Below are positions 2,934-42,625 of a DNA stretch of 64,000 nt, piece after piece (position 1 is the stretch's first letter; the number at the start of each line of letters is the position of its first letter). The notes below the pieces were generated by a model, which saw nothing but the letters and a program-made list of their open reading frames with translations, did not search any database and was not told where the DNA came from. The translations under genes and the position numbers were made by a program. The stretch is from assembly GCF_036365525.1 (NCBI RefSeq), contig NC_090418.1, positions 11,479,226-11,543,225 of the forward strand. Reading direction: 5' to 3'. This DNA is from Heterodontus francisci. Its lineage: Eukaryota.

Positions 2934-5763
2934 CTAGTTGATCAGAGTTTGCTTGTGTTTCCTGTACAGGAACAAGGCGATCAATGAAGCAGAGATCAGA
3001 CAGACAGCTGTCACAGTCAGGGCCACAATCAGAACCACCTCAGACTCCACACCTACAAAGCAATGAGAAACCAATGGTTAGTGAAGGAAACACTGAGGGG
3101 AAAATGGAAACTAGCAGTCAGCCAACTCACCACCTGGAGATCTCTCCTGCAGCCTTCGCTCAACCTCATTCAGGGACTCCATTGCCAAGTCAGTCACCTC
3201 AGTATCCAGAATGACCAGGGGTCCAAGTGAGGCCTCACCCTCCCACTTCAATCCAGCTTCACTCTCTGCAATATCAAACATGCCAGTTAGAGGGGGTAAA
3301 GGGAGATCTCCCACATCTAGAGAATCAATGTCCTACCAGCTTCAGGTACAAGATCCCTCCTTCCTCTGGAAGAAAATCGCAACTCCCTTGTGGCACCACA
3401 GTTACCCACATGGCAACAGGCACAAATGTCATTGTTGGATTGCTCCAATGGGGTCCAGCTAAACAAGAAACAGTTGATCAACCAGGTTGTCCATCACATT
3501 CCCATACAACACACCCCTGAAGGAGGGAAAGGGAACTTACACATTCTGCATCTTCTGGAAAGTACAAGCTTTGTTCATGGAATCTCTCCAATCCACTGGA
3601 GCAACTTTCAGGTGACAAGTAATGAAAATCTGTGGGATAAATTTCAACACAAATTATTTAGTGACTCCCTCCAAACATGGAGGGCCCAATGATCAGCTTC
3701 CTCTTACCAAGGAACGGTCATCTCCAAAGAAGCGGAAAGCATCCAGGTCAAACCGGAGCTTGTCCAGCTCACGCTCGTCTCTTGGCAACACGAAGGTTGA
3801 AAAGGAGTCCTCAGCTTTGCTGTCCAGGAGGCAACTGGAGAAAGATTCAAAAAGGGACATGAAGTGAATCAAGTGAAGCCATTGAGATGGGAGCAGCTGG
3901 AGAAAGCAGAGAGCTCCTTACCCATTGTAGTCAATGATGCTGTAACTCGGGGTGGAATCCTTGTCTGGGCTCAATGTAGCTACACAGTGGTCAATGTAGA
4001 GCTTCAGGGGCATGTGGTTGGTCATTGAAACAGAGGCCTCAATGTGAATGAGGTCACCCAGGTAGTAGACAGTCGAGGTGCGCTCTGTAAGCCAGTCATC
4101 TGAAGTACAAGACGACAAGGGTTAGAGACAGTGGGTACAACTCCCAGTGGGTGAGTACAGGAAATCACTCCCCATCCACCCATCACATACCATTCATTAG
4201 GCGCAGTGAGAATGACAGATGCCCTTCTCCAGACTTGGTGGAGCTGAATGGGATCCAGGTGGGCTTGATGGGGTTACTGCTCACATTCCCCTTCCTGGAA
4301 GGAAGAGACATTTTAGGACAACTTGCATTACACTGAAAAATTCATATTAAATTCACTCAACTGTTACCTAAAATAATGACACTCAATGGGAATGACAGCT
4401 CCATTCGTTCTCACAATGACAGATCCATGATACTGGGGGGTGTGGTTCAGGTGGGTGGTGTAGACCAGGAAATCTCCAGCCATCTGAAAGACATCAGGTA
4501 AAGGATAGAGGAGTTAGTCTGAATTGGAAGATATTCTGCTCAGTTCAGAATGAAAGACAATCTTACTGAAATAATTCCTACAGGGCTCCACAGGGTAGAT
4601 GCGGAGAGGCTGGAGGGCAGAAAGTTCTCCACTCAGGGGAGTGAGGATCTTCTGACCTCTCTAGCCCAGTTGTTGACTACATTCAGGACAGAATATTCCT
4701 TTTGTGCCCAAAATCCAAAAGAGACAGAGTGGGTGGGAAAGCAGTTGATGATCATCCGTGGTATTATTCAACAGCCAAGTAGGGTCCAGAGACCAAATCC
4801 ACTTCTGCTGATGTTTACGTATTTGGAAATCATGTCACCTCATTTAATGTAAGGAGAGCACCAATAGAAACAAGTGATTCAATGAAATTACAGCTTCATT
4901 TTAACCATTAAAAAAAGTGAACCATAAACTGCTAGCGTTTGGCATAAACAGATTGGTTTTAATTTCACACCCTGTGAATTAAGAGGTGGAGTTTTCTTGT
5001 AGCAAACTGTAAATCAATTTATACTCCTTTCTCTCCCCCACAAATCTAAACTAGACTAGATAAAAATGAACATTTAATCTTCAGTCAAGCTAGACAATCT
5101 GAATGAGTGGCAAGAAAGCTGAAAATCCACAAGACAAGGATGTATAAAGAATTTGAAGAAACTGAGAAGTTTCAAGTCCAATGGGGTTGAGATCACAAGG
5201 TTGGAGAGACTGGACAAGGAGATAATGCAAAGTACAATTCACTATTGAAAAGTAGTTTGAGGTTTTATAAACTGGGAGACATATCTCAAATATCAATGAC
5301 ATTAGAGAAACTGTTGCAAAGAGTAGGGAACAATTTACACCTGAAACTTGGAGCAAGAGTCAAGGACTCACATTACCTGCAATCTGCTGCCACACTCATG
5401 GAGCCCATAGTCAAAGAGGACAGTGTGGTTCTGAGAGTAGATCCTGGTCGGCCGACAACCTGCTGTCCCCAGGGTCAGGTCAGCAGCTTTAATCAGGTGC
5501 CTGGTTCCAAATAAATCCATCTGGACCCTGACCAGCAGGTTCTGCTCTCCACACTGCACCGTCACAGTCTGCAGTGGAGACACACTTCGGCCCTCAGACA
5601 CACGGAAATGGGAACCAAAGGGAGGCCCAGTTGGAGGGACATGAGTGGCCTTCACAATGCTCCATGGGAAATTCCAGTTTCTAAACTGCCGAGTATCAGA
5701 ACCACAAACAGCTCCAACCAAAACCAACAAAGAAAGCAACCACTTCACTAATTGCCCCATCAT
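2934..5763 (-). CDS. zp3: Zona pellucida sperm-binding protein 3-like (ZP3/ZPC), copy 1, 9 coding exons, 458 aa
   Basis: Exons (minus strand): 5763-5377, 4483-4368, 4294-4191, 4099-3922, 3834-3708, 3629-3541, 3458-3337, 3265-3131, 3052-2934; all introns GT-AG; total 1377 nt. Protein features: signal peptide [24 protein letters not shown] motifs VTVQC, DLFGT, LHECG, IPIECHY; linker [27 protein letters not shown] motifs [40 protein letters not shown]3 subdomain [10 protein letters not shown]; furin site [41 protein letters not shown]; tail [10 protein letters not shown]. Confidence 0.96.
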
Positions 5764-5799
5764 ACCAACAACTATACTGTGATCTAGGATAGAACCCAC

Positions 5800-39745: not shown

Positions 39746-39773
39746 GATCATTTGATAACTAGTTGATCAGAGT

Positions 39774-42625
39774 TTACTTGTGTTTCCTGTACAGGAACAA
39801 GGCGATCAATGAAGCAGAGATCAGACAGACAGCTGTCACAGTCAGGGCCACAATCAGGACCACCTCAGACTCCACACCTACAAAGCAATGAGAAACCAAT
39901 GGTTAGTGAAGGAAACACTGAGGGGAAAATGGAAACTAGCAGTCAGCCAACTCACCACCTGGAGATCTCTCCTGCAGCCTTCGCTCAACCTCATTCAGGG
40001 ACTCCATTGCCAAGTCAGTCACCTCAGTATCCAGAATGACCAGGGGTCCAAGTGAGGCCTCACCCTCCCACTTCAATCCAGCTTCACTCTCTGCAATATC
40101 AAACATGCCAGTTAGAGGGGGTAAAGGGAGATCTCCCACATCTAGAGGATCAATGTCCTACCAGCTTCAGGTACAAGATCCCTCCTTCCTCTGGAAGAAA
40201 ACCACAACTCCCTTGTGGCACCACAGTTACCCACATGGCAACAGGCACAAATGTCATTGTTGGATTGCTCCAATGGGGTCCAGCTAAACAAGAGAAACAG
40301 TTGATCAACCAGGTTGTCCATCACATTCCCATACAACACACCCCTGAAGGAGGGAAAGGGAACTTACACATTCTGCATCTTCTGGAAAGTACAAGCTTTG
40401 TTCATGGAATCTCTCCAATCCACTGGAGCAACTTTCAGGTGACAAGTAATGAAAATCTGTGGGATAAAATTCAACACAAATTATTTAGTGACTCCCTCCA
40501 AACATGGAGGGCCCAATGATCAGCTTCCTCTTACCAAGGAACGGTCATCTCCAAAGAAGCGGAAAGCATCCAGGTCAAACCGGAGCTTGTCCAGCTCACG
40601 CTCGTCTCTTGGCAACACGAAGGTTGAAAAGGAGTCCTCAGCTTTGCTGTCCAGGAGGCAACTGGAGAAAGATTCAAAAAGGGACATGAAGGGAATCAAG
40701 TGAAGCCATTGAGATAGGAGCAGCTGGAGAAAGCAGAGAGCTCCTTACCCATTGTAGTCAATGATGCTGTATCTCGGGGTGGAATCCTTGTCTGGGCTCA
40801 ATGTAGCTACACAGCGGTCAATGTAGAGCTTCAGGGGCATGTGGTTGGTCATTGAAACAGAGGCCTCAATGTGAATGAGGTCACCCAGGTAGTAGACAGT
40901 CGAGGTGCGCTCTGTAAGCCAGTCATCTGAAGTACAAGAGGACAAGGGTTGGAGACAGTGGGGACAACTCCCAGTGGGTGAGTACAGGAAATCACTTCCC
41001 ATCCACCCATCACATACCATTCATTAGGCGCAGTGAGAATGACAGATGCCCTTCTCCAGACTTGGTGGAGCTGAATGGGATCCAGGTGGGCTTGATGGGG
41101 TTACTGCTCACATTCCCCTTCCTGGAAGGAAGAGACATTTTAGGACAACTTGCATTACACTGAAAAATTCATATTAAATTCACTCAACTGTTACCTAAAA
41201 TAATGACACTCAATGGGAATGACAGCTCCATTTGTTCTCACAATGACAGATCCATGATACTGGGGGGTGTGGTTCAGGTGGGTAGTGTAGACCAGGAAAT
41301 CTCCAGCCATCTGAAAGACATCAGGTAAAGGATAGAGGAGTTAGTCTGAATTGGAAGATATTCTGCTCAGTTCAGAATGAAAGACAATCTTACTGAAATA
41401 ATTCCTACAAGGTAGATGCGGAGAGGCCGTTACTCCTGGCTGGAGAGTCTAAACCTAGCAGTCAGCCATTTCGGATGGAGGGCAGAAAGTTCTCCACTCA
41501 GGGGAGTGAGGATCTTCTGACTTCTCTAACCCAGTTGTTGACTACATTCAGGACAGAATATTCCTTTTGTGCCCAAAACCCAAAGAGACAGAGTGGGTGG
41601 GAAAGCAGTTGATGATCATCCGTGGTATTATTCAACAGCCAAGTAGGCTCCAGAGACCAAATCCACTTCTGCTGATGTTTATGTATTTGGAAATCATGTC
41701 ACCTCAGTTAATGTAACGAGAGCACCAATAGAAACAAGTGATTCAATGAAATTACAGCTTCATTTTAACCATTAAAAAAAGTGAACCATAAACTGCTAGC
41801 ATTTGGCATAAACAGATTGGTTTTAATTTCACACCCTGTGAATTAAGAGGTGGAGTTTTCTTGTAGCAAACTGTAAATCAATTTATACTCCTTTCTCTCC
41901 CCCACAAATCTAAACTAGATAAAAATGAACATTTAATCTTCAGTCAAGCTAGACAATCTGAATGAGTGGCAAGAAAGCTGAAAATCCACAAGACAAGGAT
42001 GTATAAAGAATTTGAAGAAACTATGAGAAGTTTCAAGTCCAATGGGGTTGAGATCACAAGGTTGGAGAGACTGGACAAGGAGATAATGCAAAGTACAATT
42101 CACTATTGAAAAGTAGTTTGAGGTTTTATAAACTGGAGACAGATATCTCAAATATCAATGACATTAGAGAAACTGTTGCAAAGAGTAGGGAACAATTTAC
42201 ACCTGAAACTTGGAGCAAGAGTCAAGGACTCACATTACCTGCAATCGACTGCCACACTCATGGAGCCCATAGTCAAAGAGGACAGTGTGGTTCTGAGAGT
42301 AGATCCTGGTCGGCCAACAACCTGCTGTCCCCAGGGTCAGGTCAGCAGCTTTAATCAGGTGCCTGGTTCCAAATAAATCCATCTGGACCCTGACCAGCAG
42401 GTTCTGCTCTCCACACTGCACCATCACAGTCTGCAGTGGAGACACACTTCGACCCTCAGACACACGGAAATGGGAACCAAAGGGAGGCCCAGTTGGAGGG
42501 ACATGAGTGGCCTTCACAATGCTCCATGGGAAATTCCAGTTTCTAAACTGCCGAGTATCAGAACCACAAACAGCTCCAACCAAAACCAACAAAGAAAGCA
42601 ACCACTTCACTAATTGCCCCATCAT
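39774..42625 (-). CDS. zp3: ZP3/ZPC-like, copy 4, 9 coding exons, 453 aa (tail shortened by 5 aa)
   Basis: Exons: 42625-42239, 41310-41195, 41121-41018, 40926-40749, 40661-40535, 40456-40368, 40283-40162, 40090-39956, 39877-39774. CAA>TAA at 39774-39776 ends the protein at YRKHK*; the ancestral TAG is still present at 39759-39761. Confidence 0.93.

What the first reader, a model, noticed from the sequence alone, without database searches (positions are those of the whole stretch)
2934..42625. Tandem array of at least four intact, near-identical transmembrane-type zp3 egg-coat genes in a probable shark genome
Seen: four head-to-tail 9-exon zp3 genes, each with intact splice sites, promoter, furin site, TM anchor and poly(A) signal. 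The window starts inside the array, so more copies may lie to the left. Known: mammals have one ZP3; tandem zp2/zp3 clusters occur in teleosts such as zebrafish; TM-bearing ZPs are typically made by the oocyte, whereas liver-made choriogenins lack a TM. Inference: this is a dosage-amplified, homogenised oocyte egg-coat locus in a chondrichthyan. I cannot check whether it has been described.
Basis: partly seen in the sequence, partly recalled or inferred. Interest (0 to 1): 0.82.

Follow-up and report, generated by a model that had tools for sequence, protein, structure and literature searches.

The report
Tandem egg-coat genes in horn shark
Four near-identical copies of the egg-coat gene zp3 sit in a row in a horn shark genome; such arrays are well known in other fishes, but these copies look like hybrids whose front end comes from an older sister gene.

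Summary
The array is real: four minus-strand, 9-exon zp3 genes at the stated coordinates, with GT-AG introns, TATA, furin site, TM and poly(A) signal. Copy D stops five codons early. Copy C equals an NCBI 'ZP3-like' protein of Heterodontus francisci; seven more horn-shark clusters lie on a contig of the same length, and all 13 sharks found carry several. So the genes are annotated and this window is a small part of a shark-wide family. Copies differ by 0.8-2.3% in a mosaic, show purifying selection (pN/pS 0.37-0.50) and share variants with outside copies, which argues against false duplication and for gene conversion. New: the copies look chimeric. Residues ~1-45 group with a divergent sawshark paralogue family (100/98 support), while residues 130-355 reject that grouping (AU p≈0). 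Oocyte expression and dosage are inferred, not shown; birds make ZP3 in follicle cells. Tandem zp3 amplification is known in catfish, sturgeon and notothenioids; ten searches found no paper on sharks. Modest interest.

The parts
2934..5763 (-). zp3 copy A, 9 exons (5763-5377, 4483-4368, 4294-4191, 4099-3922, 3834-3708, 3629-3541, 3458-3337, 3265-3131, 3052-2934), 458 aa; poly(A) signal at 2920-2915
13521..16366 (-). zp3 copy B, 9 exons, 458 aa; the most divergent copy (2.1-2.3%); poly(A) signal at 13507
29142..32023 (-). zp3 copy C, 9 exons, 458 aa; residues 2-458 identical to NCBI 'zona pellucida sperm-binding protein 3-like [Heterodontus francisci]' (P0001)
39759..42625 (-). zp3 copy D, 9 exons; early TAA at codon 454 (39776-39774) trims 5 residues of the cytoplasmic tail, 453 aa
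5629..5763 (-). type II leader (signal peptide plus N-terminal extension, codons 1-45) of copy A; same part at 16232-16366, 31889-32023, 42491-42625
5764..5975 (-). proximal promoter and 5' UTR of A: TATA at 5814, E-boxes at -72, -91, -176, CCAAT boxes at -109, -156; the 163 nt above the TATA are invariant in 4 of 4 copies (TATA at 16417, 32074, 42676 in B, C, D)
1..6754 (.). partial repeat unit A (left part outside the window), ends at the deletion junction shared with unit C
6755..17358 (.). repeat unit B, 10.6 kb, mostly retroelement fragments plus the gene
17359..22408 (.). 5.05-kb spacer X, present only between B and C; 98.5-99% like the flank right of D; holds a LINE insertion (about 18539-20406, 601-codon open frame with RVT_1) absent from that flank
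22409..33014 (.). repeat unit C, 10.6 kb
33015..43617 (.). repeat unit D, 10.6 kb
43618..46453 (.). spacer X', right edge of the homogenised array
47448..50786 (.). older, colinear remnant of the unit's gene-free arm (four blocks, 83-92% identical), no gene follows it

Best explanation
This is the right-hand end of a real tandem sub-array of functional ZP3 (ZPC) egg-coat genes in the horn shark, part of a larger family on one scaffold. Each gene makes a secreted, membrane-anchored precursor: signal peptide removed, furin cut at RGRR releases the hydrophobic-patch/TM propeptide, and the ZP module polymerises with a ZP1/2/4-type partner into the zona pellucida around the growing oocyte (mechanism from established ZP biology, not shown here). 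The genes are most likely transcribed in the ovary, probably in the oocyte through E-box (Figla-type) and CCAAT elements (inferred). The array grew by unequal crossing-over in retroelement-rich DNA: a long unit lost 5 kb to give a short unit, and a short+long pair of 26.2 kb was duplicated (structure shown, order of events inferred). Copies keep exchanging sequence with each other and with copies outside the window (supported). As a result the genes are mosaics: a leader of an ancient second paralogue family (type II) sits on the common shark type I body (discordance shown; direction of transfer unresolved). Several copies are kept for output, to build the coat of a very large yolky egg (inferred from precedent).
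For: Intact anatomy in 4 of 4. Pfam ZP-N and ZP-C; best solved match chicken ZP3 3NK3, E 4e-104. Among four copies 21 nonsynonymous and 17 synonymous sites, pN/pS 0.37-0.50, p 0.003-0.026; 0 of 163 promoter sites vary against 2.9% in non-coding core, p 0.008. Three CACCTG/CAGCTG E-boxes plus two CCAAT boxes in 200 nt, 0 of 20000 shuffles; no perfect oestrogen response element within any unit. Seven of eight introns are 71-91 nt. Exchange: all three informative-site patterns occur (15/7/5; 22 of 27 not CpG-type); B-specific changes 21 of 4299 versus 107 of 6241 sites along one unit; 13 of 20 variable residues have their minor state in horn-shark copies outside the window; between leader types 14 fixed differences in residues 1-45, none in 46-370, and 7 shared polymorphisms. 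Tree discordance. Precedent: 20-22 tandem zp3 genes, oocyte-only, in channel catfish (PMC13704971); copy number tracks mRNA in notothenioids (PMC5059455).
Against: No expression data were reachable. Clustering of informative sites is only borderline (p 0.064). Break points and promoter motifs were chosen after seeing the data, so those p values are optimistic; 4 of the 7 shared polymorphisms are CpG sites that can recur. Horn-shark ZP modules have very short branches and are not a supported clade, so high identity alone does not prove homogenisation. pN/pS of 0.4-0.5 is weak constraint, B has lost one and gained one cysteine outside the ZP module, and D has an early stop. In catfish, copy number and chorion thickness did not correlate significantly (rho 0.286, p 0.493). 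Bird ZP3 comes from granulosa cells.
Confidence: 0.68

Rival explanations
1. Birth-and-death without dosage selection: a repeat-rich region that duplicates easily; one or a few copies suffice and the rest drift or decay.
For: Units are mostly retroelement debris; weak constraint; early stop in D; 62 of 95 elasmobranch clusters lack a recognisable leader and many are short; no significant link of copy number to envelope thickness in teleosts (PMC13704971).
Against: No frameshift or splice loss in 4 of 4 copies despite 12-18 indel events per pair in the core; significant deficit of nonsynonymous change and an invariant promoter; several clusters in 13 of 13 sharks.
Confidence: 0.2
2. Assembly artefact: one or two loci duplicated from two haplotypes (AB and CD as alleles).
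For: A 26.2-kb two-copy higher-order repeat (1-18538 vs 26224-44797, 97.7%); A and C share one deletion junction.
Against: Four distinct sequences need at least two loci; the closest pair is A-D (0.83%), and B-D is the farthest (2.27%); no N gap inside the array; the flank after B and after D differ in structure and, further on, by 8-17%; variants recur in other annotated loci; the public horn-shark reference is named hap1 (10.1101/2025.02.26.637739; that the window comes from it is inferred).
Confidence: 0.06
3. Same array, but made by follicle (granulosa) cells as in birds, not by the oocyte; liver origin is a remote further option.
For: Closest non-chondrichthyan hits are turtle, lizard and bird ZP3; bird ZP3 is secreted by granulosa cells (PMC8508634); sharks share huge yolky eggs with sauropsids (own knowledge).
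Against: E-box-rich promoter fits Figla control of oocyte zp genes (PMC13704971; PMC9191896); amplified zp3 of catfish is oocyte-only. Against liver: TM present and no perfect oestrogen response element in the units.
Confidence: 0.22
4. The copies are kept for diversity, not amount: two leader/promoter classes with different timing, cell type or sperm-facing surface.
For: Two leader types older than the horn shark/sawshark split persist on an interchangeable body; 14 fixed differences confined to residues 1-45.
Against: About half of the leader is a signal peptide that is cut off; no excess of nonsynonymous change among the four copies; the promoters of type I copies were not available.
Confidence: 0.15

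Closest known systems
Tandem zp3/zp4 arrays of channel and blue catfish (PMC13704971)
   Same: Tandemly amplified egg-coat zp3 genes, proposed to raise output; ovary- and oocyte-specific there.
   Different: Teleost; 20-22 zp3 copies; expression measured. Here a shark, expression unmeasured, 9 exons, mosaic leader.
ZP expansions of sterlet (116 zp genes, PMC7269910) and Antarctic notothenioids (up to 37 copies per type, PMC5059455)
   Same: Lineage-specific multiplication of egg-coat genes; copies transcribed in notothenioids.
   Different: Several subfamilies expanded; polyploidy (sterlet) or cold adaptation (notothenioids) proposed. No such context here.
Chicken ZP3 (PDB 3NK3/3NK4) and mammalian ZP3
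   Same: Signal peptide, ZP-N, ZP-C, four extra C-terminal cysteines, furin site, external hydrophobic patch, TM, short tail.
   Different: Mammalian ZP3 is single-copy with 8 exons over many kb (PMC8391237); here 9 exons in 2.8 kb, many copies.
RefSeq 'ZP3-like' genes of Heterodontus francisci and other sharks
   Same: Copy C is one of them; 80 clusters at 90% identity in 13 shark species.
   Different: Automatic names only; no paper on their arrangement, mosaic history or expression was found in ten searches.
Divergent zp3 family of the sawshark Pristiophorus japonicus (type II; P0005, P0017-19, P0025, P0060, P0106)
   Same: Same leader type.
   Different: Its exons 2 onward are only about 67-73% identical to the window's and lie outside the clade of all other shark and ray copies.

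Membership tests
ZP3/ZPC egg-coat proteins | One ZP module (ZP-N + ZP-C), no trefoil or extra ZP-N domain | tested here: met
   Pfam PF23344 at 70-165 and PF00100 at 190-326, nothing else, on P0001 = copy C
ZP3/ZPC egg-coat proteins | 8 core cysteines plus the ZP3-type four-cysteine C-terminal subdomain | tested here: met
   Cys 71,103,124,164,241,263,309,326 and 346,348,349,354 in 4 of 4; invariant across 32 aligned homologues; aligned to chicken ZP3
ZP3/ZPC egg-coat proteins | Signal peptide, furin site, external hydrophobic patch, TM, short tail | tested here: met
   Hydropathy peaks at residues 2 and 426, RGRR at 365; GPL-V/I-IL patch aligned with turtle and bird; feature list from PMC8391237. 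Signal peptide by hydropathy only.
ZP3/ZPC egg-coat proteins | Best sequence match is ZP3, not ZP1/2/4/AX/D | tested here: met
   3NK3 352 bits, 8BQU 236 bits; the 120 listed hits are ZP3 or ZP3-like bar a few unnamed or uncharacterised records
Mammalian-type ZP3 gene | 8 exons, single copy | tested here: not met
   9 exons, at least four copies against 8 exons, single copy (PMC8391237). Which intron is extra was not tested.
ZP3.1 subfamily (Feng et al. 2018, PMC6262864) | Groups with canonical ZP3 and not with ZP3.2 or ZP3.3; conserved synteny | tested here: inconclusive
   Top non-chondrichthyan hits form a clade with a bird protein scoring 622 bits against chicken ZP3, but no ZP3.2, ZP3.3 or teleost sequence was in the tree and no neighbour gene was found in the window
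ZP3/ZPC egg-coat proteins | Made in ovary, polymerises into the egg coat | not testable with these tools
   No expression or protein data; catshark supplement unreadable
Dosage-amplified tandem egg-coat arrays | Several intact same-strand copies under purifying selection | tested here: met
Dosage-amplified tandem egg-coat arrays | Most copies transcribed, output scales with copy number | not testable with these tools
   no RNA data
Concerted evolution by gene conversion | Mosaic ancestry along the unit; variants shared across otherwise distinct subfamilies | tested here: met
   site-clustering test alone borderline (p 0.064)
Concerted evolution by gene conversion | Paralogues of one species form a clade | tested here: inconclusive
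   Nearest neighbour in the same species for 55 of 72 rows, 12 of 12 in horn shark, but horn-shark monophyly has no support
Liver-made choriogenins | No TM, oestrogen-driven promoter (recalled; TM statement not found in PMC10140178 or PMC8729012) | tested here: not met
   TM present; no perfect ERE in the units, 4 one-mismatch-or-better hits in the window against 3.07 expected

The most novel reading that the evidence does not exclude
Sharks, unlike rays, amplified zp3 into large arrays that carry two ancient leader/promoter classes on one conversion-homogenised body. The window's sub-array is the descendant of a second paralogue (older than the shark-ray split, whole only in the sawshark) whose coding body was overwritten while its 5' end was kept by selection, giving the horn shark two separately regulated sources of the same polymer, for example oocyte and follicle cell or early and late, to build the thick coat of a giant oocyte.
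Probability: 0.2. Interest if true: 0.62.

Novelty: new member of a known kind. Interest (0 to 1): 0.34.

Why it matters
Shark egg-coat genes are almost unstudied. The locus shows that tandem zp3 amplification, known from bony fishes, also runs through sharks (6-107 member sequences per species against 1-6 in rays), so it is either ancient or recurrent. The mosaic leader is a clean, testable case of gene conversion erasing an old paralogue except for its 5' end, and it warns that ZP family trees built on single shark copies can mislead. Copy-diagnostic variants make ovary-versus-liver and oocyte-versus-follicle expression directly testable with existing kinds of data. It is not a new mechanism.

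Tried and rejected
Fifth copy or exon remnants in the window: none. Other genes or structured RNAs: Rfam 0 matches at gathering score; of 57 open frames of 130+ codons 16 were scanned, 5 matched RVT_1, one had a sub-threshold Spc7 hit judged chance, 10 had none. Simple (A,C)(B,D) genealogy from the 26-kb repeat: rejected at the nucleotide level, only 7 of 27 informative sites. Positive selection among copies: no sign. Oestrogen response elements: chance level. Type II body as a fast-evolving orthologue of the window genes: rejected with outgroups; without outgroups the same test was not significant (p 0.057). Quartet test for chimerism: 13 of 18 non-independent quartets under p 0.05, 5 not. 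A first IQ-TREE run timed out. Accession numbers and exact locus counts per cluster could not be obtained. Supplements of PMC6262864 and PMC11979771 were unreadable; they may hold shark ZP lists or tissue expression. No structure or complex was predicted, since the PDB sequence match already fixes the fold. Viral, metagenome and prokaryotic collections were not searched.
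Full report
Observation. Self-comparison shows a tandem repeat over 1-46453 with a 10.6-kb unit and a 26.2-kb higher-order match (1-18538 to 26224-44797, 97.7%); the only N gap is at 56063-56340, outside the array. Four minus-strand genes lie at 2934-5763 (A), 13521-16366 (B), 29142-32023 (C) and 39759-42625 (D). All have nine exons of the same lengths, 32 of 32 GT-AG introns and a 1377-nt frame; A, B and C give 458 aa, D has TAA at codon 454 and gives 453 aa. 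TATA (-51), AATAAA (13 nt after the aligned stop), furin site RGRR (365-368), TM (from 426) and twelve ZP3-type cysteines are present in 4 of 4. Introns 2-8 are 71-91 nt, so each gene spans 2.8 kb. No other copy or exon remnant was found.

Identity and origin. Residues 2-458 of copy C are identical to a protein that NCBI names 'zona pellucida sperm-binding protein 3-like [Heterodontus francisci]' (P0001), so the window is most likely horn shark and the genes are already annotated. Pfam gives ZP-N and ZP-C only; the best solved relative is chicken ZP3, 3NK3. Seven further horn-shark clusters (P0002-4, P0009, P0030, P0031, P0033), 90-97% identical to the window copies over their aligned parts and matching none exactly, come from a contig of the same length, 19,484,767 nt. 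Accessions could not be listed.

Distribution. From (79 hits; best 120 of 999 listed) I counted 80 clusters in 13 shark species (2-12 clusters, 6-107 member sequences each), 15 clusters in 8 batoids (1-3 clusters, 1-6 members) and 2 in a chimaera. Members include isoforms, duplicate entries and possibly sister species, so this is a rough proxy, and sharks versus rays is one contrast. In a ZP-module tree (83 rows; 23 of 130 dropped for under 85% coverage, 24 sauropsid rows left out; P0006, P0007, P0071 never included) the nearest neighbour was from the same species for 55 of 72 rows. The nearest non-chondrichthyan hits are turtle, lizard and bird ZP3 or ZP3-like; they form a clade with a bird protein that is close to chicken ZP3. 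ZP3.1 is the likely subfamily, but ZP3.2 and ZP3.3 were not in the tree.

Architecture. Reading left to right: partial unit A (1-6754), unit B (6755-17358), spacer X (17359-22408), unit C (22409-33014), unit D (33015-43617), spacer X' (to 46453). A and C end at the same junction, where X is missing; B and D run on into X and X'. X and X' are 98.5-99% alike, but X carries a 1.9-kb LINE insertion with a 601-codon RVT_1 frame. Beyond X' lies a colinear remnant of the unit's gene-free arm, only 83-92% identical (47448-50786), whereas the same arm differs by 0.7-0.9% among B, C and D. An old, diverged edge beside uniform inner units is what homogenisation or recent expansion would leave. The simplest history is deletion of X from one unit, then duplication of a short+long pair (inferred).

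Real or artefact. Pairwise core divergence is A-D 0.83, A-C 1.06, C-D 1.26, A-B 2.12, B-C 2.21, B-D 2.27%, with transitions in excess. Four distinct sequences cannot be two alleles of one locus, and the pairs predicted by a false 26-kb duplication (A-C, B-D) are not the closest. Thirteen of 20 variable residues have their minor state in horn-shark copies outside the window, so they are not read errors. The public reference is named sHetFra1.hap1 (10.1101/2025.02.26.637739, passages). Reads were not available, so a small doubt remains.

Selection and promoter. The four coding sequences hold 21 nonsynonymous and 17 synonymous variable sites: pN/pS 0.37 (p 0.003) or 0.50 with transition weighting (p 0.026). 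The 163 nt above the TATA box do not vary (0 of 163 against 2.9%, p 0.008, window chosen after inspection). Three CACCTG/CAGCTG E-boxes and two CCAAT boxes lie in 200 nt (0 of 20000 shuffles, motifs chosen post hoc). No perfect oestrogen response element lies in any unit. Figla binding to E-boxes controls oocyte zp genes (PMC13704971 discussion; PMC9191896 passages); a role of CCAAT boxes in zebrafish zp promoters is recalled, not checked. This favours ovary and probably oocyte expression. Against certainty: bird ZP3 is secreted by granulosa cells (PMC8508634 passages).

Exchange between copies. Informative sites split 15 AD|BC, 7 AC|BD, 5 AB|CD, and 22 of 27 are not CpG-type, so no single tree fits; their clustering is borderline (p 0.064). 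B-specific changes are 21 of 4299 sites in one part of its unit and 107 of 6241 in the rest (p 3e-9, split chosen after inspection). Many of B's 'own' residues recur in outside copies.

The unexpected part: a mosaic gene. Horn shark has two leader types. The window copies and P0002 share one (type II); P0003, P0004 and P0009 have the type seen in other sharks and rays (type I). Between them there are 14 fixed differences in residues 1-45, none in 46-370, and 7 shared polymorphisms, of which 3 are non-CpG transversions. The type II leader is otherwise found only in a divergent sawshark (Pristiophorus japonicus) family: of 95 elasmobranch clusters 6 have it, 27 have type I (one match spurious) and 62 have no recognisable leader; a search with P0005 showed no further type II member among the 120 listed of 933. 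In the tree of residues 2-61 the window copies join sawshark type II at 100/98 and horn-shark monophyly is rejected (AU p 0.029). In residues 130-355, with chimaera and sauropsid outgroups, the window copies sit in the type I clade of sharks and rays (SH-aLRT 100) and the grouping with type II is rejected (79 log-likelihood units, AU p about 0); without outgroups that test gave p 0.057. Quartets agree in 13 of 18 cases, best 6:0 against 0:6. The groups were named after seeing the alignment. Type II bodies are slightly closer to outgroups than type I, so they are an old paralogue, not a fast-evolving one. Direction is open: the ZP-N part of sawshark type II exon 1 is 81-85% identical to the window against 66-78% for the segments of exons 2-6, so exon 1 may instead have moved from a type I subfamily into sawshark type II. 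Either way two leader classes predate the horn shark/sawshark split and now share one body in the horn shark. All outside sequences are automatic gene models.

How it works. Shown: intact precursors with all processing signals, constraint, exchange, mosaic ancestry. From established ZP biology (PMC8391237 passages): secretion as a membrane-anchored precursor, cleavage at the furin site, loss of the external hydrophobic patch, polymerisation into the coat. Inferred: ovary expression, retention for output. Precedent is ample: 20-22 tandem zp3 genes in channel catfish, oocyte-only, though copy number did not correlate significantly with chorion thickness; 116 zp genes in sterlet (PMC7269910 passages); up to 37 copies per type in notothenioids with matching mRNA (PMC5059455 passages); species-specific tandem duplications across vertebrates (PMC6262864, first two of five parts and passages). 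That some sharks have an unusually thick zona is recalled and unverified; PMC8894161 did not address it.

Literature. Ten full-text searches listed no paper on shark zp3 arrays. Read: PMC13704971 abstract, introduction, discussion; PMC6262864 as above; passages only of PMC8455134, PMC11979771 (no mention of zona pellucida or zp3), PMC1845163, PMC7269910, PMC10140178, PMC13361971, PMC8508634, PMC8729012, PMC9191896, PMC8391237, PMC5059455, PMC8894161 and the bioRxiv preprint. Subscription papers, such as the fish ZP surveys by Sano and colleagues, are outside the library, and two supplements were unreadable, so absence from print is not established.

Verdict. A real, annotated, probably functional tandem zp3 array of a known kind, in a group where it seems undescribed, with one new and checkable feature, the type II leader on a type I body. 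New member of a known kind; interest 0.34.

Noticed in passing
window 18539-20406: Young LINE insertion on the minus strand with a 601-codon stop-free frame matching RVT_1; present in spacer X, absent from X', replaces about 9 nt with no obvious target-site duplication. A marker for copy or haplotype.
   Followed up: partly
window 47448-50786: Gene-free, colinear remnant of the unit's left arm at 83-92% identity marks an older duplication edge.
   Followed up: partly
window 56063-56340: Single gap of 278 N, well right of the array.
   Followed up: no
window 2934-5763 and other copies: Very compact gene: seven of eight introns are 71-91 nt although the flanks are full of retroelements; nine exons against eight in mammals.
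   Followed up: partly
protein hits: Sharks show many zp3 clusters (2-12 per species; sevengill shark 107 member sequences) and rays few (1-3).
   Followed up: partly
protein hit P0007: A protein 87% identical to the horn-shark ZP3 is labelled Salmonella enterica on a 1,415-nt contig; probably a contaminated or mislabelled public record.
   Followed up: no
protein hit P0147: Sevengill shark has a further, strongly divergent TM-type ZP3 paralogue on the same-length contig as several of its type I copies.
   Followed up: partly
protein hits P0102, P0006, P0118: Gene models fuse ZP3 to C2H2 zinc fingers (white shark) or to a SEA domain (turtle, skink); likely model fusions that hint at neighbouring genes for a synteny test.
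   Followed up: no
trees: Horn-shark ZP modules have very short branches (0.005-0.02), close to the inferred ancestor of the shark and ray type I family.
   Followed up: no
window 52347-52359: The only perfect oestrogen-response palindrome lies in the repeat-derived right flank, far from the genes; chance level.
   Followed up: yes
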